This document shows positions 14,112 to 56,274 of a stretch of 64,000 bases of DNA, one piece after another; the stretch's first letter is position 1, and every line of letters begins with the position of its first letter. The notes beneath the pieces are model-generated. The model was not told where the DNA came from, ran no database searches, and was given only the letters and a program-made list of their open reading frames with translations. The stretch is from contig OY986949.1 in the NCBI GenBank assembly GCA_963920595.1, positions 4,030,001 to 4,094,000 of the forward strand. The letters are read 5' to 3'. The position numbers and the translations under genes are program-made. Source of the DNA: Eimeria praecox. Taxonomy: Eukaryota.

Positions 14112-17100
14112 TTTATGAATTCAGTTGTATGCAGTTCCTGCAAGGCAAGCCAATAGGCAGGAGTGCGGTTTCGGAGAGGCAAACGCGCATGCTTGGAAAT
14201 ATGTGCATACCTGAAGAGTCAGTGCTGCTCGAACTGACTGCCGAGAGGCATGCACAACTCGTCATTGCCTACTGTAAGGCAGGAAGGAAACTGAAAAAGG
14301 GGGAAGTCTTGAAGTCTTCGCTCTGCCACTCAAGCGCCTGTTCAATCTCCTTATTGGTTTCACCACGCAGCGCCAATTTGAGCATATTTTGTGTGTCAGT
14401 TGACAGGTGATTGAACGCATTCGTGGCAATAAGTAATGCACCAACTCGTTGTAGGAATTTCAAGGGCAATATAGTGTCGAATGGATCCTTGACGAGGTGG
14501 TAGTTTGTCAAGCTGAAGAGAAAGTCGCAGCACAGATTCCTGGAACCTCAAGTTTATTTTTTACGCAACCGTCCATCCATCACGTACACACTGGGTTCCG
14601 TCCCTTGCGTTCCTGGTTTAAAGTTTACTGAAGCCAATTCTTTTGCCTCGGCTACACGTTGATCTCACTGGTGGCCTATGGTTCTCGGCACAACCAACCC
14701 AGTGAGTTTCACGAACTAACACGTATAAAACGAGCAACAGGTTTTGCTCGCGCATTCGTTGCTGCACGGAGCAGTTGCCGACTATCTTGTACCCGTACAA
14801 CTTACCAGTAGGCAAGCGTTCTCGTCCAAACTTCGCTAGGATTGGGGAACAGCTTCAAAGCGCCAGGAAGGCAGGCCTCTACATTTGCCGTTGCAATTGG
14901 GAAAGCATCGTTCCTGTCAAGGTCTTCAGAGAACCAGTAACGCCTCCAAAACTGCACCGCACACTCAACAGTCTCTTAACAAAACAATTTGTGGATCTTC
15001 ATTCGTCCCCACGCCTTCTGGCAAGCTAACTGGCTTGGGGCGATAGAAGATATCACATGTTTTAGCGTTAACTATTTTTGGACAAAGGGTCTTTTGTTGC
15101 TCTTTACAGTGTTCGTAATTAACAAGGCTGCGTACGCCTCAATTTGTGCCCTTTTCACGTGTGCATGGCTTGACTCACACGCATAACAGGGAGCAGAGTG
15201 TAAGCAGCTGAACCATTTTGGTTGTTTTCGATTCCTCGGAGAAACTCATCTTCACATGACTCTCGGAACGGAATATTCAAAGCACGCAAAGTTTGACTGA
15301 TGGCTTCCCGTCGGACCCCAAGCGGGTTGATAATGTGAATGACAGCTGGGCGATGAGAGCTTCTTGAAATTCTAGTCAAGATATCTGTTGAAATATCAAT
15401 GGGAGTGCTTATGAAGGGAGGCCCTACAGGCAATACTCCAGGAGGTACGACACCCTGTTGCAAGGCAGCCATTGTGATGGCAAAGAATGGGTTCCGGAAG
15501 TCGACCCTGCCATTACTGAAGTACATCGCTGAATTTGGAAGCCTATATACCGTAAAGTTAAACTTGGTTCTGATATCTTGTGAGTTTTTTGCTGCAGATG
15601 CATGCAGATTTTCTACCCAAAGCTGACATTTTGCAAGTACCTCTTCGACAGCCCAACGTGCCCAAGGGTAGCCCATGATGCTCGCTGGCATTTGGTTTTC
15701 CATCCTGTCCATCAGTGGCTGCGGAACAGATAGCTCTTCTAATATTGGCTGATTGAGGTCACCAGCAAATGCTGCGAAGTACTGGATATGCGCCGCAAAG
15801 TCTGACAGCACGTGAAGGTGTTTAGCCTTTCCTGCAGTGCACAACTCCACCAGAGGAAGAAGAGACAGGACATTGGCTTTACGCATTGCTTCATAAGGCA
15901 TTGCAAAATCTACAACCCTTCCAGCATGGTAAACCGCCTCAACTTTATTCGCCAGTGCATCAAATGTCGTCTGAGAGAGGCCCAGCCTTGGCGCCCTCAA
16001 ATCCCCGACAACTGGCACAACTTGCTCAAAGAACCGTTGCTTCCATTGATTCCCTCTCCCTATGATAGCATCCACAATTCGGTACATCGCATGCATGCGG
16101 TCCCGAGCTTGGACCAGACAGTATATGCGAGGGAAACCGTTTTGACCGTCTCTGCCGCAAGCAATTTTCTGTTCTAGCAAGCTTAGCAAAATCCTGCTGC
16201 CAGTGAGACCCGTAGCCCCGGTTAAAAAGATCTCAGAAACCAGATGAGGGGGTGTGCAAGGGCTCAAAGTTTCGAGGTTCTGTCTGCTCAACATGCTGCT
16301 GCAGATGCAGCCTGTCAAGTAGGCTACATCGTCACGGGGTGTTTGTTTCCTGTCTTGGGCCAGCAGTGCTGCAGCACCCAATAAGAAGACAAATTTCTGA
16401 GAATCCAGTGGGAAGGAATTGTGCTTCCAAACATGGCGCGTTACCTGCAAGCATACGCATCCTGCATGTTTTAAGATTTTGCCCAACACTGCTTACGCCC
16501 ATCTGAAATAATAGCACATTCCTCTTAGTACCGCCAATGGTTAAACCCTTTTGTCCATGTGAAAATTCTCAGTAGATGGAAATGTACATCGAAAAAGTGG
16601 AATCACCCACCTGCGGCGCTGTTTCAGGGTCGTCACCCTCTTCGGTGATAGCGGCCACTACTGTACCACCCAGGCCATAGGCAAGATTAGCACCGAATAT
16701 CTTTGTTTGGTCCCCCACCGTACAAATAGCCTGCCCTTCCCTAGTGTAAACTATCCTTTCCATGTCGAACGTATCAATATCTGGATGTATCTTGCTGAAC
16801 TGGATATTCGGCGGCACATAGCGATGCTTCAAGGAGAGAACGGTTTTCATGAACGCAACTAGTGCTGCAGCCGAATCAAGGTGCCCAATGTTGTTGTGTG
16901 CAGTGCCCACGATCAGGGGAGACTCTTTTGGTCGTTTCTCAAACACATGCTTGACTGCATTCATTTCTATAATGTCTCCGAGAACTGTGGCTGTGCCGTG
17001 CGCTTCGTAGCACCTCACCATGGATTGGTCAACTCCACCATCGTTAAGCGCCAGAGTCAGAACTCTGGCGAGAGCTCTAGTATTTGGAGCCGTCAAACGT

Positions 17101-20100
17101 GCACCCTGCCCATAATGAGATATTGCCGTGCCACGCACAATGGCATGCACGAATTTTGACTCTGACCGTGCAGCAGCTAGCGGCGCAAGCAAGACTCCAG
17201 CAGCCCCTTCACCACGCACAAGGCCATCTGCTGCAGCATCAAATGTACGGCATCTGCCAGATTTTGAAAATTGTCGCGTCTTGCTTCCACCCAAGAAGAA
17301 ACAAGGAACAAGAATCAAACTAACTGCACCAACGAATGCTTTGGAGCATGCTGAAAGCCTCAACTTCATAATAGCGGTATCTAGCGCTACTAGACCTGAC
17401 GCACATGCGGTGTCAACGCCTATGCTGGGCCCGATAAGGCCGAGAGAGTACGATATCCTATTGGGTATCAAGCACATCATACCTCCTGGCTCAGGGTATC
17501 CAGATGCTTCACCTAAGCGGGGTACACCACCATTCACCCCTTCTCCAATTGCAAGGATGCCGTTTTCTCCTTTGGTCAGACTGGCCAGTTGATAGTCATT
17601 TGTGTATGTTGTACAAAATACCCCTATATCCTGGCCTTTTACATCTTCCCGTCTATACTGCGCATCGACGAACGTTTCGTAAGCCACCTCCAGCAGGACA
17701 CGCTGCTGAGGATCAATATTCCTCGCCTGACCCTCAGTCATTTGAAAGAACTCATTGTCAAATAGGTGGGCATTATCAAGTAAAGCGGCTTCCTTTACGT
17801 AGCATTTGTTTTCATCAGGATCAGGGTCAAAAAGAGGCTGTATATTGAATCGCTGCCACGGAATATCTTCAACGCAGTCGGTCCCAGCAAGTAACATACC
17901 CCAAAACTCTTCAGGCGAATTGCTCTTTCCTGGTAGTCGGCACCCCATGCCGATCACGGCGAATGCCCCTTCCGATTCGCCTGAGAGATGACGCCTTAGA
18001 GCTGCTGTTCCGCTGTTGATGCTCAAGGCGGATTCCCCACAAAGACCTTCGGCGATATACTCTATGACCTCGCCTAGGGTTGCAAATTCGAGTAGCAGAG
18101 AAGCTGGCAAACTCATTGCGAGACGCTCTTGAAGCAGATTTCGAAGCTCAACAGAGCCCAAAGAGTCAAGGCCCAGCTCGTCCAAACGGGTGTCTGGATG
18201 GATTCCTCCATCTTTGTCAACCAACGACTTTGCAGCCTCGAGAACTACTGCTTCGATGGAAGCTTTAGATGGGACGTCCTCCCTAGTGTTTTTGGATGGA
18301 ATTTGCATTTCCGACTCTATTTCTGCCAGGGCTCGTGGAATATTTTGGTTGAATGCCTGGGAATACTTTTTCCAGTTTACATTCAAAGCGCACACGCATG
18401 ACTCCTCAGTTTCTAAAGCCAGCTCCATGACGTGTATGCCTTCTTCAGGCAAGAAGGGTTTTATCCCACGAGTCTTGAATACCCTTTCAAGCTTTTCGTT
18501 CCTCGTGACCATGCCTACATCATTCCACGGACCCCACTGAATGCTCTGGGCCTGAAGTCCTTGCGACCTTCGCCAATATGCCAGCGAATCCAAATATGCG
18601 TTGGCAGCAGCATATGTGGCTAAAGCATCGTTCCCAGGTAAAGCAGAGATGGAGGAAAAGAGAACGAACATATCCAGGTTGGGCTCCAAATCTAGTTCTT
18701 GGCAAGCGAGGTGCAGGTTCCACGCTCCATGTGCTTTCGGATTGTAAACGCCTTCAATGCTTCTCAGGCTGGAATCAAGAAGACTAGCTTTTCCCTCATA
18801 TCCAGCGCAGTGAAATATTCCGCCAATAGGAATGATTCTGTGGATTTTGGATAGCGTATCCTTGAGACGTTGAGCATCTGCTACGTCACACAGCATGATT
18901 GCAGCCCTATGATTATTGAGTCCTTCCATAACAGCCTTCCATGCTGCCGTTTGCAGTAAGCCATCAGCTGGCTTGCCAGTCCTTGACAAGAGAGCAACCA
19001 GTCCTGCGCCGGTTTTTACCAGCCACTCTGCAACGGTTAAACCTAGTCCCCCAGTACCACCAGTAACTATGTATGACCTATTAGGCTTAACTGCAATCCT
19101 ATTCCTTGACTGAGAAGTTAAACATTGCTCTAACCGGGGAGCCATGTGGCAATTACTCGTGATGATGATGTCTTCCTCGACTGACGCAGATGGTTTGCCC
19201 TTCAGTAAGGCGCACTGAGTATCAATCCAACTCCAAGCCTTGCTCAGGCATTCCAGTGAATCGTCTTCAACATTCACGTATAACAACGGGAAAGGCCTGC
19301 CACAAATTCTTTGAACTTCCAGGCGGCTTGTCCGGCACATTCCTAGGAGACCTGCTTGTCTTATGTCGAAGTCAGCTCCGTGCTTGGTGGGAGGATGGTG
19401 AGTAGGGACCCCAAAAGCTCTATTGCTGCAGCGTGCAACAACATAGAAGGGAGGGCTGAATCCCGGGTCGTTTTGTGCTGATCTTGAGTAAGCAAGGAGC
19501 ACATTTCGCAGTTCTTCAAGGCAGGCTGTGGGGCTGGATGACTGCCACAGACCACCAACGAATATCACACTGTCTACACGCCCAGAAGGTGGACGCGGAA
19601 GCGGGGTCTTTGACTGTATGCAGCCGGTCTCCACAACTCCAGCGTCGCCCAAGTCCGACAACTTGAGAAGGCTGCAGAAGGCAGAAGCATGCTCCTTGGG
19701 AACCCCGCAGAACAGCCAGTTCTGCGCACGTTCTGAGGCAGATTTAGGTAACGCGTTAGGCGGTGTGAATTCTTTCCACGTTATTTTCCACAGTGGGCCT
19801 CGAATTAACGGGGTAACCTGCTCAGATAAATCGGCGGTTGCCTGGCGGCGTTGCCGCTGTGCACTTTCGAATGGGAAGGGGAACCTCCTGCAGGAAAACG
19901 CGCAAGACAATGCTGCAGCGTTAAACAGCATAATTGCTCACGTAAGGTATGCCGTATTCTCTAGTGGGCTTTGAACATTATAGAGTTTGCAGTGACAAGT
20001 GCTGAGGTCAGAAAGCTCACTTGTGCTGCCAGGGGCACGCTAGACGACCCGACACCGCAGTGGATATTTGCTGAATTCGCGCTTCCAGCTCATGTCTGGA

Positions 20101-23100
20101 CTCTGAAGTGCGATCACGTCCTGCCAGTTCGTAATACTTCACCCAATTGAGTTGCCGATTCCCCAGAATCTGGCTTGCAAGATTTACAAGGGTCTTCTGG
20201 GGCCCGACCTCCAAAAATACGATACGATCGGAAGCAGCTGCCTTTACAGCTGCCTCGACAGCTTCTCTAAACCTCACAGGCAACGTAAGCTGTTCTCCCC
20301 AGTAGTGAGGATCTTGAGTCTCTGACGGTTCCAGCACCCTTCCACGCACAGTTGAAGCAATTGTGACAGCAGCTGGCTGCAAATTGACTGTGGCGACAAT
20401 GGCTTCCATTTCCGGGACGGCGCCGGCCATCAGCGGTGAGTGGAAAGCATGGGATACCTGCAGGCGCCTGGAAGTCTCCGAAACTCCAAGATGTTTCAAC
20501 AGCACGTCCACGTGCTCTTTGGTTCCTGAAATAGTGACGCTTTGAGGAGCGTTGTCTCCTGCTAGTGCCACTGCATTTAAATGTTGCATGTCGGTTGAAA
20601 GGGCTGATTGGATTGCAGCAGCTGGCAGCCGACAGGCAACCATGACTCCGTTCTGCTGTGGCTGTGCAGCCAACAATGAAGCGCGCTTCGCAACCAAGCA
20701 CAACGCATCCCTCCACCCCATGACACCAGCAACAGTAGCTGCTGCGTACTCACCCAGGCTGTGACCAACAACGACATCTGGCCTCATTCCACGTTCCAGA
20801 AGAACCTTACTCAGACCGAGCTCGACCGCAACAATGGCGACTTGCGAGTACCGCGTCTGGCTCAAAAGCTCCTCCATTGCTTTTCTGTCTGACTGTGCGC
20901 CTGCACCGTATATCATATCTTCAATGCTTTGTGGGCCGTTATCTGGGAACCAGTGCATTTCCTTCAAACAGGCAGTGCACTCAGCAAGCATATCTCTGAA
21001 TACTGCATTGTGATGGAAGTAGGCGCATGCCATGTCCAAGTATTGTGACCCCTGTCCAGTGAAAAGCCATATGACCTTCGCGCGTCCTTCTGCTTGATCG
21101 GTTGTAGTCTGCTCCCAGTTGTCCATCCATGTGGACTTGAAAGTTGGGCTCACCTCGACAATGGCATGTGCATTCGAGCCACCAAATCCAAATGAGCTCA
21201 CTGCACCCAACAACGGGTCTGAGTCTCGAATACCAAATAGGGAATCAAGAGGGATACCCTTGCTGGGGAACATGAGACCTCTGTACTTCTCATTCCTAGT
21301 TATGTCAATATGAGGGTTCAGGACATTTAAGTGCAAATTAGGGGTAGCTTGTCTGTGTTGCAGGACGAGAATGAGCTTGATGAGGCCGGCAATGCCTGCC
21401 GCGCCCTCAGCATGGCCCATAAGCGATTTGAGTGCGCCAACGATAAGGGGAGGGCTGTCTCCGAAGCCGTTGCAGTATACTGCTCGAATCGCGCCAACTT
21501 CAATAGGATCTCCCAGAGACGTCCCTGTGCCGTGCGCCTCCAGGACGGACACGTCTGCTGGCGATTGAACTCGGCCATCTCGCAAGGCTGCTCGTATTAC
21601 AGCTTGTTGGGCAGGGCCATTGGGTGCTGTTAGACTGGCGCTTCTTCCGACATGGTTGTTGGCAGCCCCACGAATCCACGCGTAGACGGACGAAGGGTCC
21701 GTAGATTGACGTGGGAGTGCCTTTAGAAGCAGCGCGCCGCAACCTTCGCTGCGAACGTAGCCGTTGGCAGATGCGTCGAAGGTCTTGCACCGACCATCGA
21801 TGCTGAGCATGCGTGCCTTGCAAGTCTCAATAAAGTATGCCGGTGTCAGAAGGGCATTAACGCCTAATACGAGAGCTGGGAGGTCAGGTGCTAGCATTGA
21901 GGGAAGGGACAGGCATAGGGCAACGAGAGACGAAGAGCAGGCAGTGTCAATCGATATGCTCTGGCCTGTCAATGAGTAGAAGTATGATATGCGGTTTGCC
22001 AAGACGGCCACGGCATTGGATGTTGCAGTGAATGCAGTAATGGATGCGTTGTCCTTGAAGACGTCTTCGTGGTTCATTGCTCCAACAAAGACACTCACAG
22101 GAAGGCCTTCTAGATCCTTTAGACCATATCCGGCATCAACTGCAGCTTCAAGTGCCACCTCTAGCGCAACGCGCTGCCGAGGGTCCATCTGTTTTGCTTC
22201 TTCATCAGATATATGGAAGAATCGGTTATCAAACAGGTCCATGCATTCTAGGAAGCCACCCTTCTTCACGTACATCTTCCCTGGGGAATCCGGGTTAGGA
22301 TCATATGACCCCTCTACGTCAAATCGATTCTCCGGGATGTCTGCAATGCAGTCTATTCCTTGGGATGCCATCTTCCAGAACCCGCTAGGGTCACTGCCAG
22401 AAGCAGGGAATCGACATGCCATTCCCACTACTGCAGCGTCTACTCCTGACGAAGTGTCCAAAGGCGTAACCTGTTCAACAACTGTGCTCGAAGAGGTCTC
22501 TGCTGGGTCTTCTTCGCTAATGTCCTGCAAAAGAAACTTGGTCAATGCGTCAACGGTTGGATGGTCGAATAAAACCGTAGCGCTTAGCCTTACATGCAAT
22601 GCGTTTTGAATTGCATCGCGGAATTCGATCGCGCCTAAGGAGTCGATACCAAGTTCCTGTAGAGGTGCATCGACGGTTATGCCTGCTGCGTCATTTAGAA
22701 CGGACTTTGCAGCTTGCAGGACGACTTGCTGAATGTGCTCACGCTTGTCCTTTTGCTTTCCCTTGCTCGCGTGCTGTGCAGACTCTAGACGAGGTCCACC
22801 ACGTGAGCTTGATGTAGCAGCCAGTGTGTTAGAGGCGGCTGCTTCAAGCATTCCAATCTCTTCAAGGACTTTAGGAATGGCAAACCTGTACCGCGGGAAG
22901 AAGCGACCCCAGTACACAGGTTGGCATCCTACGACGGACTCCGCATTCTGCTGCACCACAGCACTGAGGGTAAGCAAACCAAGAGCGTTCGATATACCGC
23001 CAAACCCCGTCTTTGCGAAGCGCCCTTGCAACTGAGCGGCCATGCCCTGCTCTACCCATGGACCCCATTGAATGCTGTGGGCAGCAAGTCCAAGCGAACG

Positions 23101-26100
23101 CCTATATAGAGCCAGCTCGTCAATACAACAGTTAGCGGCCGCATAGTTTGCCTGGCCAGCATTCCCCAGCAGTCCGACAGATGAAGAAAACATGACGAAG
23201 TACTTTAGATGCTTTTCCATTCCTCGTGCTCCTAGGCAGTTGTGCAAGTTCCAAGCTCCTTCTACCTTTGGCTTGAAAACTAACTCCACGGCGCGTTGGT
23301 CTTGCTGCGGCAGCGGCTTGTCCATGAGCACCCCTGCGCTATGGAAGATGCCAGTTACAGGCTCTACAAAGTGTAGCTGACCAGTAACATGGCAAATCAG
23401 ATATCCGTTCTGGATACGAGCAAACAGCGTTTCGACATCAGACGCCCGCGCAACATCGCACTGTTGAACGATAACATGTGTGCACGTGCACTTCTCCATA
23501 AGCTGCTGCCAAAGCTTTGCTGTTGTACCCTCCCGTGGAGGTGTCCCCGTTCTAGAGAGCAAAATAACCGTCTTTGCGCCGTTGTCTGCAAGCCAAAGGG
23601 CTACGACGAGACCCAAACCACCGAGTCCACCTGTTATTATGCATGTTTCTCCGTGCCCAACGTTGCTCACTGCCCGTCGGGTGTGAAGGAGTCGAATATC
23701 ACTGAACGTAAGCTGCGGAGTAAACATTCGGCCTCCGCGAACAGCAACTTCAGTCATGGCGTATTGCCGCCCACCTGCTGCAAAGCCTTGGCGGAAATCT
23801 GTTTGATGATACGCATGCAAAATTGATGCAACCTGTTGAACCATATCGGGTGTCAAAGGGGTTGCCTGCTGACCAGGTGATTCAAGATCTATTAATATTA
23901 GAGGCACAGGCCTATTCGCAGCGGCTTCCATTTCAAGCTTGGCTGTTCGGCACAGGCCTCGAACCCCTGCTAGAAGTGGATGAGCTGCCTGTTCCCCAGG
24001 CCTCACGGAGGAAGCACTCGCAACTACAATGACTATAGGGGGTATTGGCTCGGTTCCCTCGGCACCCAGATTCTTTGTAATGCATTGAAGAAGCTCCAGA
24101 ACGTCTGCTGTGTACTCCACTGCCCCGTTCCAGCATTGGCATGCACCGCCCAAATGTACCACTGCATCCCACTCCTCAAGTTTAACGTCTTCCGTCTTGC
24201 GCAAGCCTTTCGAACTATAGTGCAGTTCAACACTGGTGTTATCAGATATGTCCATTCTTTGAAACGCCGAACAAGTAGTCTCTGCTTCTACTCCGTAAGC
24301 AAGCCACTGCAGAGCGCGCCCCTGCTTGGCAGGCTTCTGAGGTGTTCGCCACATTTTGCTTTCGACCCACTTCATGCTCCATAGTAGTCCACGACCAAGG
24401 TCCCGTTCCTTGGGCAGCACCTGGTCTTCTACTACTGGCTGCAGACGCATGGTACCAATCTGAGCAACTACATTGGCGCTCTCATCCAACAAGGTGATCG
24501 ATACGACAGCGCCATCAGACTGTGAAATTGGGCTGGTACTGCCACCAACTATATCTACGTTTGCCCAGTAAGAGCTACCAGATACATCAGTACTGCCCCA
24601 CACTGTGATATCCGATGCCGAAACAGGCACCAAAGCTGTTGCCCAGTCTGGCGCGAGGTGAAGCACGAGGAGTGCAGCGGCTTGGACGCATCCGTCCAGA
24701 ATCGATGGGTGCAGAATAAAGCTACGTTCAAAGTCAGCTACATCATGCCTGAACCGGAGCTCAACAAGCGCTGAGGTTCCGGCGATAGTTATTTCGTTGA
24801 TTGTTTGGAAGCAGGGACCATATTCCAGTCCACGCTGTCTGAGTTCCTGGTACGCTTCAGCTGCAGTGTAGCGCTTGCTCATCTTCTCGAGCATGCGCTT
24901 AGCGGATTCGTTGATGCCGACTGCTGGTGGCTTCGTAGCATCTGTGCAAGCCACCACCGATACCCACCCTTCAGCATGTACCACTGCAGTGGAGAGGTTT
25001 GTATCAGCCGAGACGCTGCCTGCGTGACTCGAGGACAGAGCAACATATGTGCGTTCACCCGCACTCTCTAGTCCTAATGTCAGTCGCACATCGCTGTAAC
25101 TGGTTGGACAGCGTGAGACGTTTGTTCCCCACTTTTCAGGGCCTTCATTCAGAACCATTGGCTGCATTATTGCAACGTCGTGCAACGCAATGCCCTCCTC
25201 GCCAACTTTAGCACCAGACCGTGCCAAGGCGGCACCTATCATCGCATCAATAAAAGCAACTCCTGGAAGGATAGGCGTGCCCCACACAACGTGGTCCTTG
25301 AGTACATCAAGGACGCCGCTGCGGATGATTGCCTCGCAGTGAGTAACCTCGTTGTTGGACACGACAGTGGAGGCAGCAGCGTCACTGTCAATGAGCGGAT
25401 GAGGAACCTTTCTCCATTCGAAGGACCTACAAAGGGAACGCATCAGGGACAGGAAAAGGAGTCTATAAGTGCTTGCCCCAGGTTGAAGCATGAGACACCG
25501 TTTCAGCCGGAATCTACGCTGCTGGTATCCCCCGTCCTCCCTCAACCCCGGCTCTGCAGCAGTCTTACTGGTGATTCCAAATGTGTTTCCGCCTAGCTGC
25601 GTCGTTAAAGCTGCACATTTGCTCGCATTGACGCAGTCGCTCTTTCAGCGTATCTTCATCTGCCTCTTCACCCCGTTCAACCAGGTTCAGGAACTCCGTC
25701 TTTACATCCTCCTTTTGACTGACAATTTGAGCCGTTAGGTTGACTAGTGTTCTCTGCGGCCCGACCTCCAAAAATACGATACGATCGGAAGCAGCTGCCT
25801 TTACAGCTGCCTCAACAGCTTCTCTAAACCTCACAGGCAACGTAAGCTGTTCTCCCCAGTAGTGAGGATCTTGAGTCTCTGACGGTTCCAGCACCCTTCC
25901 ACGCACAGTTGAAGCAATTGTGACAGCAGCTGGCTGCAAATTGACTGTGGCGACAATGGCTTCCATTTCCGGGACGGCGCCGGCCATCAGCGGTGAGTGG
26001 AAAGCATGGGATACCTGCAGGCGCCTGGAAGTCTCCGAAACTCCAAGATGTTTCAACAGCACGTCCACGTGCTCTTTGGTTCCTGAAATAGTGACGCTTT

Positions 26101-29100
26101 GAGGAGCGTTGTCTCCTGCTAGTGCCACTGCATTTAAATGTTGCATGTCGGTTGAAAGGGCTGATTGGATTGCAGCAGCTGGCAGCCGACAGGCAACCAT
26201 GACTCCGTTCTGCTGTGGCTGTGCAGCCAACAATGAAGCGCGCTTCGCAACCAAGCACAACGCATCCCTCCACCCCATGACACCAGCAACAGTAGCTGCT
26301 GCGTACTCACCCAGGCTGTGACCAACAACGACATCTGGCCTCATTCCACGTTCCAGAAGAACCTTACTCAGACCGAGCTCGACCGCAACAATGGCGACTT
26401 GCGAGTACCGCGTCTGGCTCAAAAGCTCCTCCATTGCTTTTCTGTCTGACTGTGCGCCTGCACCGTATATCATATCTTCAATGCTTTGTGGGCCGTTATC
26501 TGGGAACCAGTGCATTTCCTTCAAACAGGCAGTGCACTCAGCAAGCATATCTCTGAATACTGCATTGTGATGGAAGTAGGCGCATGCCATGTCCAAGTAT
26601 TGTGACCCCTGTCCAGTGAAAAGCCATATGACCTTCGCGCGTCCTTCTGCTTGATCGGTTGTAGTCTGCTCCCAGTTGTCCATCCATGTGGACTTGAAAG
26701 TTGGGCTCACCTCGACAATGGCATGTGCATTCGAGCCACCAAATCCAAATGAGCTCACTGCACCCAACAACGGGTCTGAGTCTCGAATACCAAATAGGGA
26801 ATCAAGAGGGATACCCTTGCTGGGGAACATGAGACCTCTGTACTTCTCATTCCTAGTTATGTCAATATGAGGGTTCAGGACATTTAAGTGCAAATTAGGG
26901 GTAGCTTGTCTGTGTTGCAGGACGAGAATGAGCTTGATGAGGCCGGCAATGCCTGCCGCGCCCTCAGCATGGCCCATAAGCGATTTGAGTGCGCCAACGA
27001 TAAGGGGAGGGCTGTCTCCGAAGCCATTGCAGTATACTGCGCGAATCGCGCCAACTTCAATAGGATCTCCCAGAGACGTCCCTGTGCCGTGCGCCTCCAG
27101 GACGGACACGTCTGCTGGCGATTGAACTCGGCCATCTCGCAAGGCTGCTCGTATTACAGCTTGTTGGGCAGGGCCATTGGGTGCTGTTAGGCTGGCGCTT
27201 CTTCCGACGTGGTTGTTCGCAGCCCCACGAATCCACGCGTAGACGGACGAAGGGTCTGTAGATTGACGTGGGAGTGCCTTTAGAAGCAGCGCACCGCAAC
27301 CTTCGCTGCGAACGTAGCCGTTAGCAGATGCGTCGAAGGTCTTGCACCGACCATCGATGCTGAGCATGCGTGCCTTGCATGTTTGTTGAAACGCTTCAGC
27401 CCTTAGCATGAGATTTATGCCAATCACCAAGGCCTGGGATATTGCCTGGTTGGCCATGTAGCTAAGTGCGAAATCAAGCGCAACAATTGAGGAGGAGCAT
27501 GCTGTATCAACGGTTACGCTTGGTCCGGAGAACCCATTAACGTATGAAATCCTGTTTGATAATATGCTTATATGGGCTGCGGTGACCGTGTAAGCGGTGG
27601 CAGACACTCCGCCGTCCAAGGCAGTTTCGTGATTCATGGATCCTACAAAGACTCCTGTTGCTTCCGCGTGCGTCCCTCCGCGCTCAATCCCGGCATCAAA
27701 CATGGCCTCATAGGAGACCTCCAAGGCTACCCTTTGCCTTGGATCCATTTGCTGTGCCTCCAAAGTGGAGATCGAAAAGAAATGGCAGTCAAAGAGATCA
27801 AAATTTCTAATTGATCCACCAGCACGCGTATAAATGCCAGCATCATCAGGCATGCCCGCGCTGTACGCATCGATGTCAAACCTGGAAAGTGGAACATCAG
27901 CGATACAATCCACACCTCCTGCAACCATCTCCCAGAAGCTGATGGGATTACCCACTGAACCAGGGAATCGACATGCCATTCCCACTACTGCAGCGTCTAC
28001 TCCTGACGAAGTGTCCAAAGGCGTAACCTGTTCAACAACTGTGCTCGAAGAGGTCTCTGCTGGGTCTTCTTCGCTAATTTCCTGCAAAAGAAACTTGGTC
28101 AATGCGTCAACGGTTGGATGGTCGAATAAAACCGTAGCGCTTAGCCTTACATGCAATGCGTTTTGAATTGCATCGCGGAATTCGATCGCGCCTAAGGAGT
28201 CGATACCAAGTTCCTGTAGAGGTGCATCGACGGTTATGCCTGCTGCGTCATTTAGAACGGACTTTGCAGCTTGCAGGACGACTTGCTGAATGTGCTCACG
28301 CTTGTCCTTTTGCTTTCCCTTGCTCGCGTGCTGTGCAGACTCTAGACGAGGTCCACCACGTGAGCTTGATGTAGCAGCCAGTGTGTTAGAGGCGGCTGCT
28401 TCAAGCATTCCAATCTCTTCAAGGACTTTAGGAATGGCAAACCTGTACCGCGGGAAGAAGCGACCCCAGTACACAGGTTGGCATCCTACGACGGACTCCG
28501 CATTCTGCTGCACCACAGCACTGAGGGTAAGCAAACCAAGAGCGTTCGATATACCGCCAAACCCCGTCTTTGCGAAGCGCCCTTGCAACTGAGCGGCCAT
28601 GCCCTGCTCTACCCATGGACCCCATTGAATGCTGTGGGCAGCAAGTCCAAGCGAACGCCTATATAGAGCCAGCTCGTCAATACAACAGTTAGCGGCCGCA
28701 TAGTTTGCCTGGCCAGCATTCCCCAGCAGTCCGACAGATGAAGAAAACATGACGAAGTACTTTAGATGCTTTTCCATTCCTCGTGCTCCTAGGCAGTTGT
28801 GCAAGTTCCAAGCTCCTTCTACCTTTGGCTTGAAAACTAACTCCACGGCGCGTTGGTCTTGCTGCGGCAGCGGCTTGTCCATGAGCACCCCTGCGCTATG
28901 GAAGATGCCAGTTACAGGCTCTACAAAGTGTAGCTGACCAGTAACATGGCAAATCAGATATCCGTTCTGGATACGAGCAAACAGCGTTTCGACATCAGAC
29001 GCCCGCGCAACATCGCACTGTTGAACGATAACATGTGTGCACGTGCACTTCTCCATAAGCTGCTGCCAAAGCTTTGCTGTTGTACCCTCCCGTGGAGGTG

Positions 29101-32100
29101 TCCCCGTTCTAGAGAGCAAAATAACCGTCTTTGCGCCGTTGTCTGCAAGCCAAAGGGCTACGACGAGACCCAAACCACCGAGTCCACCTGTTATTATGCA
29201 TGTTTCTCCGTGCCCAACGTTGCTCACTGCCCGTCGGGTGTGAAGGAGTCGAATATCACTGAACGTAAGCTGCGGAGTAAACATTCGGCCTCCGCGAACA
29301 GCAACTTCAGTCATGGCGTATTGCCGCCCACCTGCTGCAAAGCCTTGGCGGAAATCTGTTTGATGATACGCATGCAAAATTGATGCAACCTGTTGAACCA
29401 TATCGGGTGTCAAAGGGGTTGCCTGCTGACCAGGTGATTCAAGATCTATTAATATTAGAGGCACAGGCCTATTCGCAGCGGCTTCCATTTCAAGCTTGGC
29501 TGTTCGGCACAGGCCTCGAACCCCTGCTAGAAGTGGATGAGCTGCCTGTTCCCCAGGCCTCACGGAGGAAGCACTCGCAACTACAATGACTATAGGGGGT
29601 ATTGGCTCGGTTCCCTCGGCACCCAGATTCTTTGTAATGCATTGAAGAAGCTCCAGAACGTCTGCTGTGTACTCCACTGCCCCGTTCCAGCATTGGCATG
29701 CACCGCCCAAATGTACCACTGCATCCCACTCCTCAAGTTTAACGTCTTCCGTCTTGCGCAAGCCTTTCGAACTATAGTGCAGTTCAACACTGGTGTTATC
29801 AGATATGTCCATTCTTTGAAACGCCGAACAAGCAGTCTCTGCTTCTACTCCGTAAGCAAGCCACTGCAGAGCGCGCCCCTGCTTGGCAGGCTTCTGAGAT
29901 GTTCGCCACATTTTGCTTTCGACCCACTTCATGCTCCATAGTAGTCCACGACCAAGGTCCCGTTCCTTGGGCAGCACCTGGTCTTCTACTACTGGCTGCA
30001 GACGCATGGTACCAATCTGAGCAACTACATTGGCGCTCTCATCCAACAAGGTGATCGATACGACAGCGCCATCAGACTGTGAAATTGGGCTGGTACTGCC
30101 ACCAACTATATCTACGTTTGCCCAGTAAGAGCTACCAGATACATCAGTACTGCCCCACACTGTGATATCCGATGCCGAAACAGGCACCAGAGCCGTTGGG
30201 CAGGTAGGGATGTTCTGAAGTGCAAGAAGGACACCAGCTTGGACGCATCCGTCCAGAATCGATGGGTGCAGAATAAAGCTACGTTCAAAGTCAGCTACAT
30301 CATGCCTGAACCGGAGCTCAACAAGCGCTGAGGTTCCGGCGATAGTTATTTCGTTGATTGTTTGGAAGCAGGGACCATATTCCAGTCCACGCTGTCTGAG
30401 TTCCTGGTACGCTTCAGCTGCAGTGTAGCGCTTGCTCATCTTCTCGAGCATGCGCTTAGCGGATTCGTTGATGCCGACTGCTGGTGGCTTCGTAGCATCT
30501 GTGCAAGCCACCACCGATACCCACCCTTCAGCATGTACCACTGCAGTGGAGAGGTTTGTATCAGCCGAGACGCTGCCTGCGTGACTCGAGGACAGAGCAA
30601 CATATGTGCGTTCACCCGCACTCTCTAGTCCTAATGTCAGTCGCACATCGCTGTAACTGGTTGGACAGCGTGAGACGTTTGTTCCCCACTTTTCAGGGCC
30701 TTCATTCAGAACCATTGGCTGCATTATTGCAACGTCGTGCAACGCAATGCCCTCCTCGCCAACTTTAGCACCAGACCGTGCCAAGGCGGCACCTATCATC
30801 GCATCAATAAAAGCAACTCCTGGAAGGATAGGCGTGCCCCACACAACGTGGTCCTTGAGTACATCAAGGACGCCGCTGCGGATGATTGCCTCGCAGTGAG
30901 TAACCTCGTTGTTGGACACGACAGTGGAGGCAGCAGCGTCACTGTCAATGAGCGGATGAGGAACCTTTCTCCATTCGAAGGACCTACAAAGGGAACGCAT
31001 CAGGGACAGGAAAAGGAGTCTATAAGTGCTTGCCCCAGGTTGAAGCATGAGACACCGTTTCAGCCGGAATCTACGCTGCTGGTATCCCCCGTCCTCCCTC
31101 AACCCCGGCTCTGCAGCAGTCTTACTGGTGATTCCAAATGTGTTTCCGCCTAGCTGCGTCGTTAAAGCTGCACATTTGCTCGCATTGACGCAGTCGCTCT
31201 TTCAGCGTATCTTCATCTGCCTCTTCACCCCGTTCAACCAGGTTCAGGAACTCCGTCTTTACATCCTCCTTTTGACTGACAATTTGAGCCGTTAGGTTGA
31301 CTAGTGTTCTCTGCGGCCCGACCTCCAAAAATACGATACGATCGGAAGCAGCTGCCCTTACAGCCGCCTCAACAGCTTCTCTAAACCTCACAGGCAACGT
31401 AAGCTGTTCTCCCCAGTAGTGAGGATCTTGAGTCTCTGACGGTTCCAGCACCCTTCCACGCACAGTTGAAGCAATTGTGACAGCAGCTGGCTGCAAATTG
31501 ACTGTGGCGACAATGGCTTCCATTTCCGGGACGGCGCCGGCCATCAGCGGTGAGTGGAAAGCATGGGATACCTGCAGGCGCCTGGAAGTCTCCGAAACTC
31601 CAAGATGTTTCAACAGCACGTCCACGTGCTCTTTGGTTCCTGAAATAGTGACGCTTTGAGGAGCGTTGTCTCCTGCTAGTGCCACTGCATTTAAATGTTG
31701 CATGTCGGTTGAAAGGGCTGATTGGATTGCAGCAGCTGGCAGCCGACAGGCAACCATGACTCCGTTCTGCTGTGGCTGTGCAGCCAACAATGAAGCGCGC
31801 TTCGCAACCAAGCACAACGCATCCCNNNNNNNNNNNNNNNNNNNNNNNNNNNNNNNNNNNNNNNNNNNNNNNNNNNNNNNNNNNNNNNNNNNNNNNNNNN
31901 NNNNNNNNNNNNNNNNNNNNNNNNNNNNNNNNNNNNNNNNNNNNNNNNNNNNNNNNNNNNNNNNNNNNNNNNNNNNNNNNNNNNNNNNNNNNNNNNNNNN
32001 NNNNNNNNNNNNNNNNNNNNNNNNNCCTCCACCCCATGACACCAGCAACAGTAGCTGCTGCGTACTCACCCAGGCTGTGACCAACAACGACATCTGGCCT

Positions 32101-35100
32101 CATTCCACGTTCCAGAAGAACCTTACTCAGACCGAGCTCGACCGCAACAATGGCGACTTGCGAGTACCGCGTCTGGCTCAAAAGCTCCTCCATTGCTTTT
32201 CTGTCTGACTGTGCGCCTGCACCGTATATCATATCTTCAATGCTTTGTGGGCCGTTATCTGGGAACCAGTGCATTTCCTTCAAACAGGCAGTGCACTCAG
32301 CAAGCATATCTCTGAATACTGCACTGTGATGGAAGTAGGCGCATGCCATGTCCAAGTATTGTGACCCCTGTCCAGTGAAAAGCCATATGACCTTCGCGCG
32401 TCCTTCTGCTTGATCGGTTGTAGTCTGCTCCCAGTTGTCCATCCATGTGGACTTGAAAGTTGGGCTCACCTCGACAATGGCATGTGCATTCGAGCCACCA
32501 AATCCAAATGAGCTCACTGCACCCAACAACGGGTCTGAGTCTCGAATACCAAATAGGGAATCAAGAGGGATACCCTTGCTGGGGAACATGAGACCTCTGT
32601 ACTTCTCATTCCTAGTTATGTCAATATGAGGGTTCAGGACATTTAAGTGCAAATTAGGGGTAGCTTGTCTGTGTTGCAGGACGAGAATGAGCTTGATGAG
32701 GCCGGCAATGCCTGCCGCGCCCTCAGCATGGCCCATAAGCGATTTGAGTGCGCCAACGATAAGGGGAGGGCTGTCTCCGAAGTCATTGCAGTATACCGCG
32801 CGAAATGCTCCAACTTCAATAGGATCTCCCAGAGACGTCCCTGTGCCGTGCGCCTCCAGGACGGACACGTCTGCTGGCGATTGAACTCGGCCATCTCGCA
32901 AGGCTGCTCGTATTACAGCTTGTTGGGCAGGGCCGTTGGGTGCTGTTAGGCTGGCGCTTCTTCCGACATGGTTGTTGGCAGCCCCACGAATCCACGCGTA
33001 GACGGACGAAGGGTCTGTAGATTGACGTGGGAGTGCCTTTAGAAGCAGCGCACCGCAACCTTCGCTGCGAACGTAGCCGTTAGCAGATGCGTCGAAGGTC
33101 TTGCACCGGCCATCGACACTTAGCATGCCAGCTTTGCAATACTGTTCAAAAATATGATGGTTAATTAATATGTGAACGCCTGCAGCAAGGGCCGCGTTGC
33201 ATCGTCCTTCGTTGAGAAGTTGCTTAGCCACGTCGAGCGCTACAAGAGAAGAAGAGCAGGCAGTGTCGATGGTCATACTCGGTCCGTGAAGGTTAAATAC
33301 ATAGGAAAGCCGGTTGGAAACGATTGATGCAGCTCCACCAGTCCCAGTCAGGCTTTTAGCCGCTTGGTTTGAGGTGCAGGCTTCGCGAGCCCAGTCATTG
33401 TTGCAGCAGCCCACGACAATGGCTGCATCCAGTATACTGTTTTCCTGCAGGTCACTGGCAATGGCCTCGTGGCACACTTCCAGCAAGACGCGTTGATGCG
33501 GGTCCATCAACTGGGCCTCAGCAATGGAAATGTTGAACGATGCATTGTCGAATAAGGCCATGTCTGGGTAGATTCCAGCATCATTAACGTAAAGTTTATT
33601 AGATGCCTCTACATCAGAATCTCTGTACTTCCAAGGATCAAAACGAGTGAGCGGAATGTGGTGAATACAGTCCTGGCCAGCTTGGAGTGCATCCCAAAAC
33701 TCCGACTCACGTCGAGCCTTTGGAGGGAACCTGCAAGCCAGTGCAGTCACCGCAACGGAGCATCGAGCAGTAGGATGTCCCACCCCTGGGAGCATCTGAT
33801 TGCCCACATCCCCCTCCTGTGCAGAAGATATTTGCTCCAAGTATTCCACAAGCTGCTCAACGCATGGATGGTCGTATAAGATGGTTGCTGGTAGCTGAAT
33901 TTTGAGCCTCTTCGAGAGGCCTTCCCTGATTCCAATAGATGTCATTGAATCTACTCCTGCCTCCACAAATGGGGTGTTTTCTTGCAAAGGCTCCTCCAGG
34001 TTAAGCGCTAGCTTGAGTGCCTCGTCAACGGCTGCCTTTATCTGTTCGCGGGAGATGGTAGGCGCGGAGGATGCTGGAACGTTATGATGCGGCGAATTAA
34101 CTGCCAAAGGAAAAGGTGAGGAACGCCCCGGAGAATGTGAGCTGCCGTCAGGGCGCATATCCAGTTCCTCACTGCCAGATGAGAACGTGCCAACCTCAGC
34201 ATGCGTCGCTTGGTGACTACCATTTCCACAGCAAATGGAGTTCAATCTATTGTCCTGGTGTGTTTCCTTGGGTCGCCTGTGAGTGGCCACATTGCCGGGC
34301 CCGAGGACTGGTACCTCAGTGAACACTACAGAGCCACTCCGTCCAGCATCCTGGTCCGTCGACGGCCCGATAAGACTGAAGGTCGTCCCACAGAAAGATG
34401 AAGTGGGGGTTGCAATACAACCCTCAGGAGTGATTAATTCCACTGGAGAAACCCCTCCATTGCTGCCTCCTGGCATGCTAATCAGGTGAGACCAGGGAAA
34501 CCTGTTCTTCTTCCAGTAGCACTTGTCGTTCAGCTGTGCCTTAAAATCATGCTGACCAGCCGCTGGGCCTTCCAAAATGACGTGACCGTTACAGCCGCCA
34601 ACACCAAATGAGCTGACACCCACCACCAGTGGCCGATCAGGGACAGGGAACTTTGTTGCCGTTCGAGGGATGGAAAAGTATTGTGGCACCCTATCTATTA
34701 AGCTGCTAAGGCGATTGAAGTGAAGGGTGCCCGGCACACAACGGTTGATGAGTACAAGAATAGCCTTGCAGATTCCTGCGCCCCCCGACGCGCCTTCACA
34801 ATGGCCAATATTCCCTTTGATTGAACCAACAAGAAGTGGCCTTGCGGGTTCGTGAGAGTTCCCAAAGACAGCTGCAAGGCTTTGAACCTCTACAGCATCA
34901 CCCATCCTCGTTCCTGTGCCATGCGCCTCAATGTAATCGACATCGTTTGGAGAGATATTTGCTTTGCTTAGTGCTCCCTCCATGACACGCCGTTCAGCAC
35001 CTTCGCTGGGAGCTGTGGTTGAGAACGCCCTCCCACTATGCACCACAGCGTGTCCACGAACATACGCGAGTGGGCTTACGAGCGAAGTGTCAACATAATC

Positions 35101-36486
35101 GGAGACATAATCTTCTCTAACCAGCGAAAGAACGACCACCCCCTCTGATCTAATAAAACCATCAGAAGCTTCATCAAAAGGGCGGCAGCGGCCTTTCCGC
35201 GACAGCATTCCTAGATTACAGAGAGCCACTGTGACCTCTGGAGCAATGATGAGTTGGGATGATCCTGCCAGGGCGCATATCATGCGGCCTGATTCAATGT
35301 GGCTCACAGCTGTGCAGAATGCCACGATTCCCGAGGACGTAGCCGTATCGATTGTCATTGAAGCTCCCTCCAGGTTCATGCAGTACGAAATGCGATTCGC
35401 AAGCATTGCATGCTGGAGATCTACAATGAAGCACGAAGGGCTGTCTCTTGCAGTGAGTTTTGCGTGAACCAGAAACCTGAGCAAATGCATAAAGGGCATT
35501 ACGTTTTTGAGGAGGGAGACGGAGGTTCATTCTCTGGTTCAGATCGCATGCTAAACGGCAAAATCAGCAAGCCACCAGTCAACTGTATAAGCAAAAGCGA
35601 GCACACTGGCTGCTCAGTTGATAGGAACGTCCATATTCACAGCTTGTAAGGGGACAGTGTTCCCGCTTGATGCACGCTAGCGCATACTAGACTAAGGAAC
35701 TTACCAATCAGCACACGAGCATCCAATAAAAACTCCAGTCTCATCTGTTGGGCGTATACGGCCCTTCATCAAAGGGGCCCTAGCTTCGAAAGCAGCTTCC
35801 AAAAGGAGCCGTTGTTGGGGGTCCATCTGTGAAGCCTGAGAAAGCATAGTAATTCAGAAACCGCAAGTGTTATGCCGACTCGCCCTGTGCTGGAATGCGC
35901 TAGGTAAACTTACTTCATGATCAGGGATTTCGAAGAACCGGTTGTCGAACGCCTCTGCATCTTCAATGAATCCTCCTTCTTTGACGTAAATGGTACCCTC
36001 ACCTCCTTCTGGATCGTAAAGCAGATCTGCATTCCATCGCGAGGCAGGAATAGGGGTGATCGCATCCCTTCCCGGGACAAGGATATCTGACCACAAGTCC
36101 CCCAGTGTTTCGACTCCACCAGGCAAGCGACATGAAGCGCTTATGATTGCCACTCGCGGGGAACGTTGATGCGGGCGGATTGCATGTAGAGGAACTCTGT
36201 TGCTCCGATCAGAGCAGACCCCCTCAGACAACTCAGTGATCTTCGCAGCGACTTCCTCAATTTTTTTGCATTGGAGAAGAGACGAGGGAAGTTCTAGCCC
36301 CAGAGAAATAGAAAGGGACCTTAGGAAGAATGAACCTGCCACTGAGTCGCTAGACACCAATTCCCACTGCCGCGCAGAGTCACCTCCTGTGAACTCCACT
36401 GCGCAACTGGCAGCTTGCAGCGCCTCAGTGACCAGATTTATTGAGCTCATGCCAACTAAAGCGCTGCGCATGGGCTGGGTTTCCAT
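14112..36486 (-). CDS. Modular type I polyketide synthase (multi-exon; 5 KS, 3 AT, 2 DH, 3 KR, 5 ACP, terminal reductase); 3' end unresolved
   Basis: Start aaaATG at 36486. GT-AG introns include 35836-35913, 30984-31125, 25427-25568, 19888-20020, 16445-16610, 14952-15178 and 14513-14805, and they join the large ORFs in frame. Motifs: KS DTACSS/HGTGT/GH, AT GQGSQ/GHSLG/HAFHS, DH DHVVWGTPILPG and HPSILDGCVQA, KR GGLGGLG/YAAAN, ACP GIDSL/GVDSM/GLDSL, R domain TGATGLTG. Confidence 0.92.
14806..16240 (-). other. PKS terminal thioester-reductase-like (extended SDR) domain
   Basis: IFLTGATGLTG, IYCLVQA, VVGDLRAPRLGLS, VYHAG, YEAMRKANV, GYPWARWAVE, VYRLP. Confidence 0.85.
16630..17970 (-). other. 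PKS terminal divergent KS5
   Basis: FAVIGMGCRLPG, IDPQQRVLLE, DTACASG, HGTAT, HNNIGHLD, AYGLGGT. Confidence 0.85.
18045..22440 (-). other. PKS module KS4-AT-KR-ACP (no DH)
   Basis: After the post-AT linker (WQHK|RFPF) the chain goes straight into the KR structural subdomain and KR (GGTGGLG, HCAGYEGK, YAAAN), then ACP GLDSL. Confidence 0.85.
22520..28000 (-). other. PKS module KS3-AT-DH-KR-ACP
   Basis: Same motif set; near-identical 5,557-bp paralog of the upstream module. Confidence 0.9.
28080..33760 (-). other. PKS module KS2-AT-DH-KR-ACP (preceded by an ACP at ~33830-34050; AT spans the N gap)
   Basis: DTACSS, GHSLG, HAFHS, DH and KR motifs, GIDSL. Confidence 0.88.
31826..32025. other. 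Assembly gap (200 N)
   Basis: Run of N. Confidence 1.
34570..36160 (-). other. PKS KS1 (active-site Cys replaced by Thr; no AT follows)
   Basis: VAIISASCRLPG...MDPQQRLLLE...TIDTATSS...HGTGT...KGNIGHCE...SSFGVGGCNGHVILE, followed directly by a WKKNRFPW linker. Confidence 0.88.
36223..36450 (-). other. PKS N-terminal degenerate ACP-like domain
   Basis: VSSDSVAGSFFLRSLSISLGLELPSSLLQCKKIEEVAAKI matches the ACP DS+...L...LGL+LP+SLL pattern, but lacks the G of GxDS. Confidence 0.6.
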
Positions 36487-55600: not shown

Positions 55601-56274
55601 CCTGAATCACCAGCACTTAGACCCCCTGCAGGCGCACCCGCTCCTCCTCCCTGTGGACCTGTCGATGTGTTGGTAGAGGATAAAGGGGTTTCTCTACTTG
55701 TGTGTGTTTCAACGTCAGAACTCAGAGATGCTGCAGCACCATCAACCTTCATTTGTCGCTTGTCAGCATTCAATACATCTTCCAGTGGTGTTGCTGCCTC
55801 TTTCTTTGTTGCTGCTGCCTCAGGCTGTGCCGCTGTTGCCCCACCACAGGCGCTTGGTGTCTGCTGAGACTTTTCTGTTCCTGGTGCTGCGGCCATTGCG
55901 TCCTCGAAGGACCGTCTGACGCTCATTCTTCCTTCTCCACATCCGCTGCTGTCGCCGCCTTCGGCTTGCTGCTGTTCTTGCTGGGGCCCCTGAGGTGGTG
56001 CAGCATTTACATCAACTGCTCGAAACTTAGACCCTTCAGTCGAGTCAGCAGATGAGTTGAGCCGACGCCCCAAGAACTCTTGCATCTTCTTCGGGCGCGC
56101 CTTCGGGAAGAGAAGGCGACGCTTACGAGGGGGGTCTGTTTCCTGTGCACCTTGCGGGGCCGTAGGACCCTTGGGTGCTGCTGGAGGCGAATCCCGTGGT
56201 TCCTTAGACTCATCTGCAGAAGCAGAGGGAGGGATGGGCCCTTGTGGCTGCTGAACATCCGGCTGCGGCTCCAT
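43651..56274 (-). CDS. XMAP215/ch-TOG/MOR1-like microtubule-associated protein (TOG/HEAT repeats), multi-exon
   Basis: TOG1-like start EDFSGIPLATRLQSKAIKQR...ILKDTNA, TOG-like PPWKVKMQAWQQL, and HEAT motifs (SDKRVR, DDGNAAVRAAG, DSDKKVR). Successive long minus-strand helical ORFs are joined by GT-AG sites. That the distal exons (43.6-49 kb) belong to the same gene is inferred. Confidence 0.65.

What the first reader, a model, noticed from the sequence alone, without database searches (positions are those of the whole stretch)
14112..36486. Apicomplexan modular PKS with a hybrid cis-AT/AT-less, ER-free architecture
Seen: ACP-KS*(no AT)-ACP-[KS-AT-DH-KR-ACP]x2-KS-AT-KR-ACP-KS-R, with no ER domain and no N-terminal acyl-ligase loading domain. 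All ATs carry the HAFH motif. Established: HAFH indicates malonyl-CoA specificity, and Cryptosporidium FAS1/PKS1 load through an acyl ligase-ACP, with FAS1 modules fully reducing. Inference: this is not a fatty-acid elongase but a true assembly-line PKS making a short conjugated-diene, hydroxylated polyketide, i.e. a candidate uncharacterised parasite secondary metabolite with non-standard initiation and release.
Basis: partly seen in the sequence, partly recalled or inferred. Interest (0 to 1): 0.85.

Follow-up and report, generated by a model that had tools for sequence, protein, structure and literature searches.

The report
Eimeria PKS2 with rewritten first module
This is a real, spliced 6,868-residue polyketide synthase gene of the chicken parasite Eimeria praecox, the counterpart of the already studied Toxoplasma PKS2, and it differs mainly in an extra intact reducing unit in its first module, so it likely makes a short diene alcohol that nobody has yet isolated.

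Summary
The gene is real: minus strand, 36486-14269, 9 exons, 6,868 aa, matching two Eimeria praecox fragment annotations. Domain order: ACP-like remnant, KS1(Cys->Thr)-ACP, [KS-AT-DH-KR-ACP]x2, KS-AT-KR-ACP, KS5-TR. No ER or acyl ligase was found, with positive controls. A 200-N gap lies inside AT1, but read-contig depths of 1:2:3 in two DNA samples fit three ATs and two DH-KR-ACP units; 6 of 8 introns are spliced in an RNA library.

It is coccidian PKS2. TgPKS2 is published with three HAFH ATs, four ACPs, a loading didomain, KS5-TR release and no fully reducing domains; EtPKS2 is linked to gametocytes and oocysts. Most of the claimed novelty is known. 'Hybrid cis-AT/AT-less' is overstated: all three extension modules are cis-AT. 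The first 'ACP' is unproven, probably vestigial.

Not found in the papers I could search: Toxoplasma models have a dead DH and no KR in module 1, whereas Eimeria has a 99%-identical copy of module 2's DH-KR-ACP; KS1 lacks only its Cys; KS5 lacks the conserved Lys; modules are homogenised within each species. Predicted product: octa-4,6-diene-1,3-diol or its aldehyde (untested).

The parts
14269..36486 (-). PKS2 coding span, 9 exons, 6,868 aa. Introns at 35913-35836, 35704-35477, 31125-30984, 25568-25427, 20020-19888, 16610-16445, 15178-14952, 14805-14513
   Evidence: stop-free model, GT..AG ends. 6 of 8 introns seen spliced in RNA-library contigs; the two identical AT/DH introns are inferred from frame and splice sites only. 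Matches E. praecox EPH_0011870 at 100% and CDI75658.1.
36223..36459 (-). N-terminal ACP-like helical segment, probably a vestigial non-carrier
   Evidence: In register with ACP helix II but not above shuffles; Ser in 4 of 7 eimeriids; similar Ser-less segment in Toxoplasma; folds inconclusive.
34576..36168 (-). KS1, loading KS with Cys->Thr; His, Lys, His intact (KSQ-like)
   Evidence: Thr in the window and 5 of 5 orthologues that cover the site; 365 bacterial KS had C (359) or Q (6).
33832..34056 (-). ACP1 (GVDSM)
32476..33774 (-). KS2 (Cys-His-His)
31254..32397 (-). AT1 (GQGSQ, GHSLG, HAFH), interrupted by the N gap
31826..32025 (.). 200-N assembly gap; flanks overlap by 2 nt relative to AT2/AT3
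28076..30904 (-). Module 1 DH (His and Asp intact), structural KR subdomain, KR (B-type VLMD), ACP2; missing or dead in Toxoplasma models
25697..28009 (-). KS3-AT2
22522..25347 (-). Module 2 DH-KR-ACP3; 25 of 3,169 nt differ from module 1, 21 of them in one DH patch at 24633-24679
20140..22455 (-). KS4-AT3 (Gln at the Toxoplasma Q/H72 switch position)
18042..19887 (-). Module 3 structural KR subdomain, KR3 (Lys, Ser, Tyr intact; no LDD), ACP4; no DH
16632..17954 (-). KS5: Cys-His-His kept; conserved Lys->His, HGTAT, SFG->AYG, Asn->Val
14506..16243 (-). Terminal thioester reductase (TGATGLTG; Asp/Tyr/Arg where TgTR has Asn/Tyr/Lys)

Best explanation
This gene is the Eimeria praecox orthologue of coccidian PKS2, a three-module, malonyl-using, ER-free assembly line that likely makes a short unsaturated hydroxy chain and releases it by reduction. 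Shown: domain order, catalytic motifs, splicing, orthology. Inferred: KS1, which has lost only its acyl-accepting Cys, likely decarboxylates malonyl-ACP1 to an acetyl starter, as KSQ domains do. ACP1 would be loaded by a neighbouring AT or in trans. Modules 1 and 2 would each extend, reduce and dehydrate (crotonyl, then 2,4-hexadienoyl). Module 3 would extend and reduce (3-hydroxy-octa-4,6-dienoyl-ACP4). KS5 likely does not extend; it would act as a gatekeeper or scaffold. The TR would release octa-4,6-diene-1,3-diol (C8H14O2) or the aldehyde. By analogy with E. tenella the gene is likely used in gametocytes and oocysts, feeding wall formation.
For: Architecture and motifs. Orthology: TR clade 100/99 with Toxoplasma and Cystoisospora; KS5 59% and TR 43% identical to Toxoplasma; collinear with T. 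gondii ME49 model P0292. Copy structure: contig depths 52.8/105/149 in X1 and about 560/1150/1746 in X2. Published TgPKS2 data: AT1 and AT2 use malonyl-CoA; TgTR reduces octanoyl-CoA and octanoyl-ACP4, giving octanol from the CoA ester with NADH, and the authors call C8-C10 rational for the module count; TgKS5 showed no decarboxylation. KS5 lacks the Lys kept by 365 of 365 bacterial KS, which a review calls required for efficient extension (PMC12664062). KSQ loading chemistry: PMC11350588. EtPKS2 is up in gametocytes and in oocyst-wall fractions.
Against: No product of any coccidian PKS is known. Thr is not Gln, and no test of KS1 exists here; the Toxoplasma models lack the KS1 active-site stretch, so Thr could not be checked there. 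The loading unit has no AT, and TgACP1 is the one ACP not reported to self-acylate, so priming is unexplained. The Eimeria TR has Asp/Tyr/Arg, so activity and cofactor are extrapolated. Oocyst-wall lipids described so far are long polyhydroxy acyl chains, which a free C8 diol does not explain. Depth is an indirect measure of copy number, and X1 may be the assembly's own source.
Confidence: 0.55

Rival explanations
1. Lipid-tailoring elongase. ACP1 is loaded in trans with a medium or long acyl chain (from PKS1/FAS1 or an acyl-CoA ligase elsewhere), and the three modules add a diene-ol tip before release as a fatty alcohol for the oocyst wall. KS1 would be structural.
For: No loading AT. CpFAS1 works as an elongase of long chains (PMC2995488). 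Wall lipids hold long polyhydroxy chains. EtPKS2 appears in gametocytes and wall fractions. TgACP2-4 accept many CoA substrates.
Against: No ligase in the gene or the 64-kb window. KS1 keeps His, Lys and His in 5 of 5 orthologues. TgTR was less efficient with decanal than with octanal; longer chains were not tested in the text I read.
Confidence: 0.22
2. KS5 is catalytic. It takes the chain from ACP4 onto its Cys and condenses it with a re-loaded ACP4 or a second acyl chain (a fourth extension to C10, or a non-decarboxylative head-to-head join) before the TR reduces it.
For: KS5 keeps Cys-His-His and is the most conserved tail domain measured: 84-92% within Eimeriidae, 59% to Toxoplasma. Its pocket changes (Lys->His, F->Y, His->Ala; Asn->Val or Ile) are shared by 5 of 5 orthologues, which fits a kept, altered role. 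TgACP4 self-acylates.
Against: TgKS5 did not decarboxylate malonyl-ACP4 and did not change octanoyl-ACP4 in vitro. No fifth ACP follows it.
Confidence: 0.18
3. The second DH-KR-ACP unit is an assembly artefact, and the real gene resembles Toxoplasma's.
For: N gap amid 98-99% repeats. Related annotations look collapsed or chimeric (Cyclospora P0001 has one AT; the ME49 model has duplicated KS pieces).
Against: DH-KR-ACP contigs sit at twice and AT contigs at three times the unique depth in X1 and X2. Both DH variants occur in X3. KS2, KS3 and KS4 N-halves are only 40-52% identical to each other.
Confidence: 0.05

Closest known systems
Toxoplasma gondii TgPKS2 (D'Ambrosio 2022, PMC9301873; Keeler 2023, bioRxiv 10.1101/2023.05.23.541938)
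   Same: AT-less KS-ACP loading unit, three cis-AT modules with GHSLG/HAFH, four true ACPs, KR-only last module, ACP4-KS5-TR end, no ER, near-identical ATs within the protein, ~110-aa N-terminal segment before KS1.
   Different: In Toxoplasma models, the unit before KS3 has a DH without the catalytic His and Asp (3 of 3 models that hold AT1 to ACP2; the fourth, a fragment, lacks the same KR) and no KR: 545 aa from HAFH to the ACP serine against 1,072 here. All three ATs here have Gln at the Q/H72 switch. The TR has Asp/Tyr/Arg rather than Asn/Tyr/Lys. The published domain figure could not be seen.
Eimeria tenella EtPKS2 (ETH_00005790/ETH_00005785)
   Same: Named Eimeria PKS2, expressed in oocysts and gametocytes and cited as a similar cluster to TgPKS2.
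   Different: Its sequence was not retrieved, so its module-1 content was not compared.
Cryptosporidium CpFAS1 and alveolate FAS1-type enzymes ending ACP-TR-sulfotransferase
   Same: Modular malonyl extension and reductive release; their TRs are the next relatives.
   Different: CpFAS1 has an acyl ligase-ACP loader and ER in every module. The alveolate relatives mostly carry ER, have no KS between the last ACP and TR, and end in a sulfotransferase.
KSQ-AT-ACP loading modules (e.g. GfsA)
   Same: A Cys-less KS with the decarboxylation residues ahead of the first ACP.
   Different: Thr instead of Gln, and no loading AT.

Membership tests
Coccidian PKS2 (TgPKS2 type) | C-terminal ACP-KS-TR release unit | tested here: met
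Coccidian PKS2 (TgPKS2 type) | Three cis-AT modules with GHSLG and HAFH | tested here: met
   depth 3x
Coccidian PKS2 (TgPKS2 type) | AT-less KS-ACP loading didomain; five KS and four true ACP | tested here: met
Coccidian PKS2 (TgPKS2 type) | No fully reducing (ER) module | tested here: met
   (positive control)
Coccidian PKS2 (TgPKS2 type) | TR groups with TgTR | tested here: met
   one 100/99 clade of 10 rows (8 named coccidian, 2 unnamed); midpoint root only
Coccidian PKS2 (TgPKS2 type) | Same tailoring domains in module 1 as TgPKS2 (variant feature, not family-defining) | tested here: not met
   on automatic Toxoplasma gene models
Coccidian PKS2 (TgPKS2 type) | NADH-dependent 4-electron TR; malonyl-CoA use by ATs | not testable with these tools
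   Published for Toxoplasma only
CpFAS1/PKS1-type fatty acyl elongase | N-terminal acyl ligase-ACP | tested here: not met
CpFAS1/PKS1-type fatty acyl elongase | ER in each module | tested here: not met
trans-AT or hybrid cis/trans-AT PKS | Extension modules lacking AT | tested here: not met
   3 of 3 extension modules carry an AT
KSQ loading decarboxylase | Cys->Gln at the active site | tested here: not met
   Thr; it may still work like one
KSQ loading decarboxylase | His-His-Lys decarboxylation residues intact | tested here: met
Acyl carrier protein (N-terminal segment) | ACP fold and conserved phosphopantetheinyl serine | tested here: inconclusive
   Ser in 4 of 7; profile score within shuffles; Atlas PP-binding hits at 0.89 and 0.87, first hit another family; folds disagree
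GRINS (Nivina 2021) | Duplicated region with mean absolute GC and TA skews above 0.15 | tested here: not met
   0.10-0.12; definition

The most novel reading that the evidence does not exclude
Coccidian PKS2 splits the ketosynthase reaction between its two ends: KS1 (Cys->Thr) is a new 'KS-T' decarboxylating primer, and KS5 (Lys->His, remodelled pocket) is a non-decarboxylating condensing or transfer enzyme coupled to the TR. Gene conversion in Eimeria overwrote module 1 with a DH-KR-ACP copy, so Eimeria and Toxoplasma make different small polyketides from one orthologous gene.
Probability: 0.25. Interest if true: 0.65.

Novelty: new variant of a known kind. Interest (0 to 1): 0.33.

Why it matters
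No apicomplexan polyketide has been identified, and PKS2 is tied to the cyst and oocyst stages that spread these parasites. A near-complete Eimeria model with intact motifs in every module gives a concrete target mass (C8H14O2, or the aldehyde) and two cheap enzyme tests (KS1 Thr, KS5 His). It also warns that Toxoplasma's product may not be Eimeria's. The family, its lack of ER and its KS-TR end are already published, so this is an increment rather than a discovery.

Tried and rejected
No whole genome is held, so trans-acting ligases or ATs elsewhere could not be sought. Missed ER or ligase exons: not found (0 of 78 flanking ORFs hit a biosynthetic family; one weak ferredoxin hit at E 0.008). 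The upstream gene is a DM10/EF-hand protein, not a ligase. No tailoring cluster was seen next to the gene. The first protein search was swamped by bacterial PKSs (1 coccidian row of 120 listed). Folding of the N-terminal segment was inconclusive: pLDDT 29.7 with helices, and pLDDT 55 with an alpha/beta topology; no fold search was run on either. A PDB sequence search with the N-terminal profile gave nothing below E 0.09. GRINS was rejected. The look-up of sequencing runs listed no holder on record as RNA; X4 is a guessed RNA library, and only its spliced joints are used. No joint was listed for intron 25568-25427; intron 31125-30984 was outside the laid stretches. Earlier scan findings: none. 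The Keeler 2023 ACS Chem Biol paper is not held. Paper figures are not held and the bioRxiv supplements are closed; they may already show Eimeria architectures or the KS1 and KS5 residues. E. tenella and Besnoitia full-length sequences were not retrieved. An N-terminal profile search of the large protein library was not done, so wider relatives of that segment are unexamined.
Full report
Observation. Seven long minus-strand ORFs between 15155 and 36510 carry PKS domains. Splicing at eight GT..AG introns gives one stop-free frame of 6,868 aa from 36486 to the stop at 14269. Contigs of a guessed RNA library (X4) are spliced at 6 of the 8 introns. One of them runs from 36588 through exons 1-3 without an upstream joint, and an in-frame stop lies just before the ATG. 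Orthologous models from six other eimeriids begin at the same place. The upstream neighbour is a DM10/EF-hand gene. The 3' part is 100% identical to Eimeria praecox EPH_0011870 and the 5' part matches another E. praecox fragment annotation.

Missing domains. ER and adenylation queries found nothing in the 64 kb (best E 0.56), while the same queries detected those domains in related alveolate synthases. None of 78 flanking ORFs hit a biosynthetic family.

Assembly risk. A 200-N gap lies in AT1 among repeats of 98-99% identity. Its flanks overlap by 2 nt relative to the other copies. Contig depths on unique, DH-KR-ACP and KS-C/AT sequence were 52.8, 105 and 149 in X1, and about 560, 1,150 and 1,746 in X2. 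The ratios still fit 1:2:3 in two samples. With three distinct KS N-halves (40-52% identical) this leaves the domain order fixed, apart from which variant comes first.

Active sites. KS1 has Thr for Cys with His, Lys and His intact, in the window and 5 of 5 orthologues covering the site; of 365 bacterial KS, 359 had Cys and 6 Gln. KS2-4 are canonical. KS5 keeps Cys-His-His but has His for the Lys found in 365 of 365 bacterial KS, plus three other pocket changes, in 5 of 5 orthologues including Toxoplasma. All three ATs have GQGSQ, GHSLG and HAFH. The paper's Q69, H/Q72, S166 and H272 map onto GQGSQ and these motifs, so the inactivating His72 of RH-strain TgAT3 is absent here. Both DHs keep His and Asp. 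KR1 and KR2 have an LxD motif, B-type by recalled fingerprint rules; KR3 has none but keeps Lys, Ser and Tyr. The TR has Asp/Tyr/Arg where Toxoplasma has Asn/Tyr/Lys. The N-terminal 'ACP' aligns in register with ACP helix II but scores within shuffles, keeps the serine in 4 of 7 eimeriids and lacks it in Toxoplasma. The Atlas gave only sub-0.9 ACP leads and two folds disagreed. I treat it as a likely vestige.

What is known. TgPKS2 was described with three GHSLG/HAFH ATs and no fully reducing domains, with E. tenella ETH_00005790 named as a similar cluster (PMC9301873: parts 1-3 of 9, passages and the text of supplement 1 read, spreadsheets not read). It has three modules, loading and release didomains, four ACPs, a KS5 inactive in a decarboxylation assay, and an NADH-dependent TR that reduces C8-C10 substrates; it is up about 4-fold in bradyzoites (bioRxiv 10.1101/2023.05.23.541938: parts 1-4 of 6 read, figures and supplements not seen). 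EtPKS2 is expressed in oocysts (PMC3760245, passages), up in gametocytes (PMC4345034, passages) and in oocyst-wall proteomics (PMC10707475, passages). Two 2026 papers state that the product or function is unresolved (PMC13749307, part 1 of 5; 10.64898/2026.07.29.741455, passages). The window's TR groups with Toxoplasma and Cystoisospora TRs at 100/99 in a 20-row tree; two unnamed proteins fall inside that clade. The next relatives are alveolate ACP-TR-sulfotransferase enzymes, mostly with ER and without KS5.

What differs. In T. gondii models (ME49, GT1, VEG and a 686-aa fragment) the unit before KS3 is a DH lacking its catalytic His and Asp, followed directly by the ACP, with no KR: 545 aa from HAFH to the ACP serine against 1,072 here. 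These are automatic models, and the ME49 one is garbled further on. The 527-aa gap does fit most of the 610-aa offset between the published TR start (5775) and this one (6385). In E. praecox the module-1 DH-KR-ACP is a near copy of module 2: 25 of 3,169 nt differ, 21 of them in one DH patch, and the introns differ at 0 of 142 nt. The three AT cores are 99.5-100% identical to each other but 74-77% to other species' ATs, while an E. media first AT and an E. intestinalis last AT are 90% identical. KS C-halves are homogenised and N-halves are module-specific. This points to ongoing gene conversion that spares substrate-facing parts; skews of 0.10-0.12 fall below the GRINS definition (PMC8256042 passages). 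Searches for TgPKS2, ETH_00005790, PKS2 with oocyst and Eimeria with PKS and gene conversion (0 papers) showed no account of these points in the passages I read. The key architecture paper is not held and may contain them.

Mechanism. Most likely: KS1 decarboxylates malonyl-ACP1 (by analogy with KSQ, PMC11350588 passages); two reduce-and-dehydrate rounds and one reduce-only round give 3-hydroxy-octa-4,6-dienoyl-ACP4; KS5 does not extend (Lys role from PMC12664062, one passage); the TR releases the diol or aldehyde. All chemistry is inferred. Rivals are a long-chain starter supplied in trans, as CpFAS1 elongates long chains (PMC2995488 passages), a catalytic KS5, and a misassembly.

Verdict. 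A real gene, correctly read for the most part, but a member of a published family. The added value is a near-complete Eimeria model, a module-1 difference from Toxoplasma and two testable active-site changes. Interest 0.33.

Noticed in passing
window 38020-41900, minus strand: Multi-exon DM10 plus EF-hand gene (EFHC/RIB72-like; family name recalled) directly upstream; 8 spliced joints seen in X4.
   Followed up: partly
window 54208-56331, minus strand: ORF with an XMAP215/CLASP TOG domain.
   Followed up: no
window 59282-60592, minus strand: ORF with a PIN_6 ribonuclease domain (NOB1-like; name recalled).
   Followed up: no
window 3468-6671, minus strand: 1,067-aa ORF in a CAG/CTG-repeat-rich region with no Pfam hit.
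   Followed up: no
window 20257, 21634, 21736, 22522: Assembly letters not supported by the main contigs of X1 and X2: likely assembly errors or copy mixing, so the repeat copies may be even more alike than the window shows.
   Followed up: no
proteins P0001, P0133, P0292: Public PKS2 models of Cyclospora (one AT only), E. maxima (apparent KS2/KS3 chimera) and T. gondii ME49 (duplicated KS pieces) look collapsed or garbled by the internal repeats.
   Followed up: partly
proteins P0142-P0157, P0161-P0170, P0185: Widespread modular synthases ending ACP-TR-sulfotransferase, named ones from Cardiosporidium, Rhytidocystis, Chromera and Gregarina; a Chromera and a Gregarina protein have AT-less extension modules, i.e. 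truly hybrid layouts.
   Followed up: partly
window 34066-34575, minus strand: About 170-aa poorly conserved linker between KS1 and ACP1 where an AT would normally sit; Toxoplasma has a similar-length linker.
   Followed up: no
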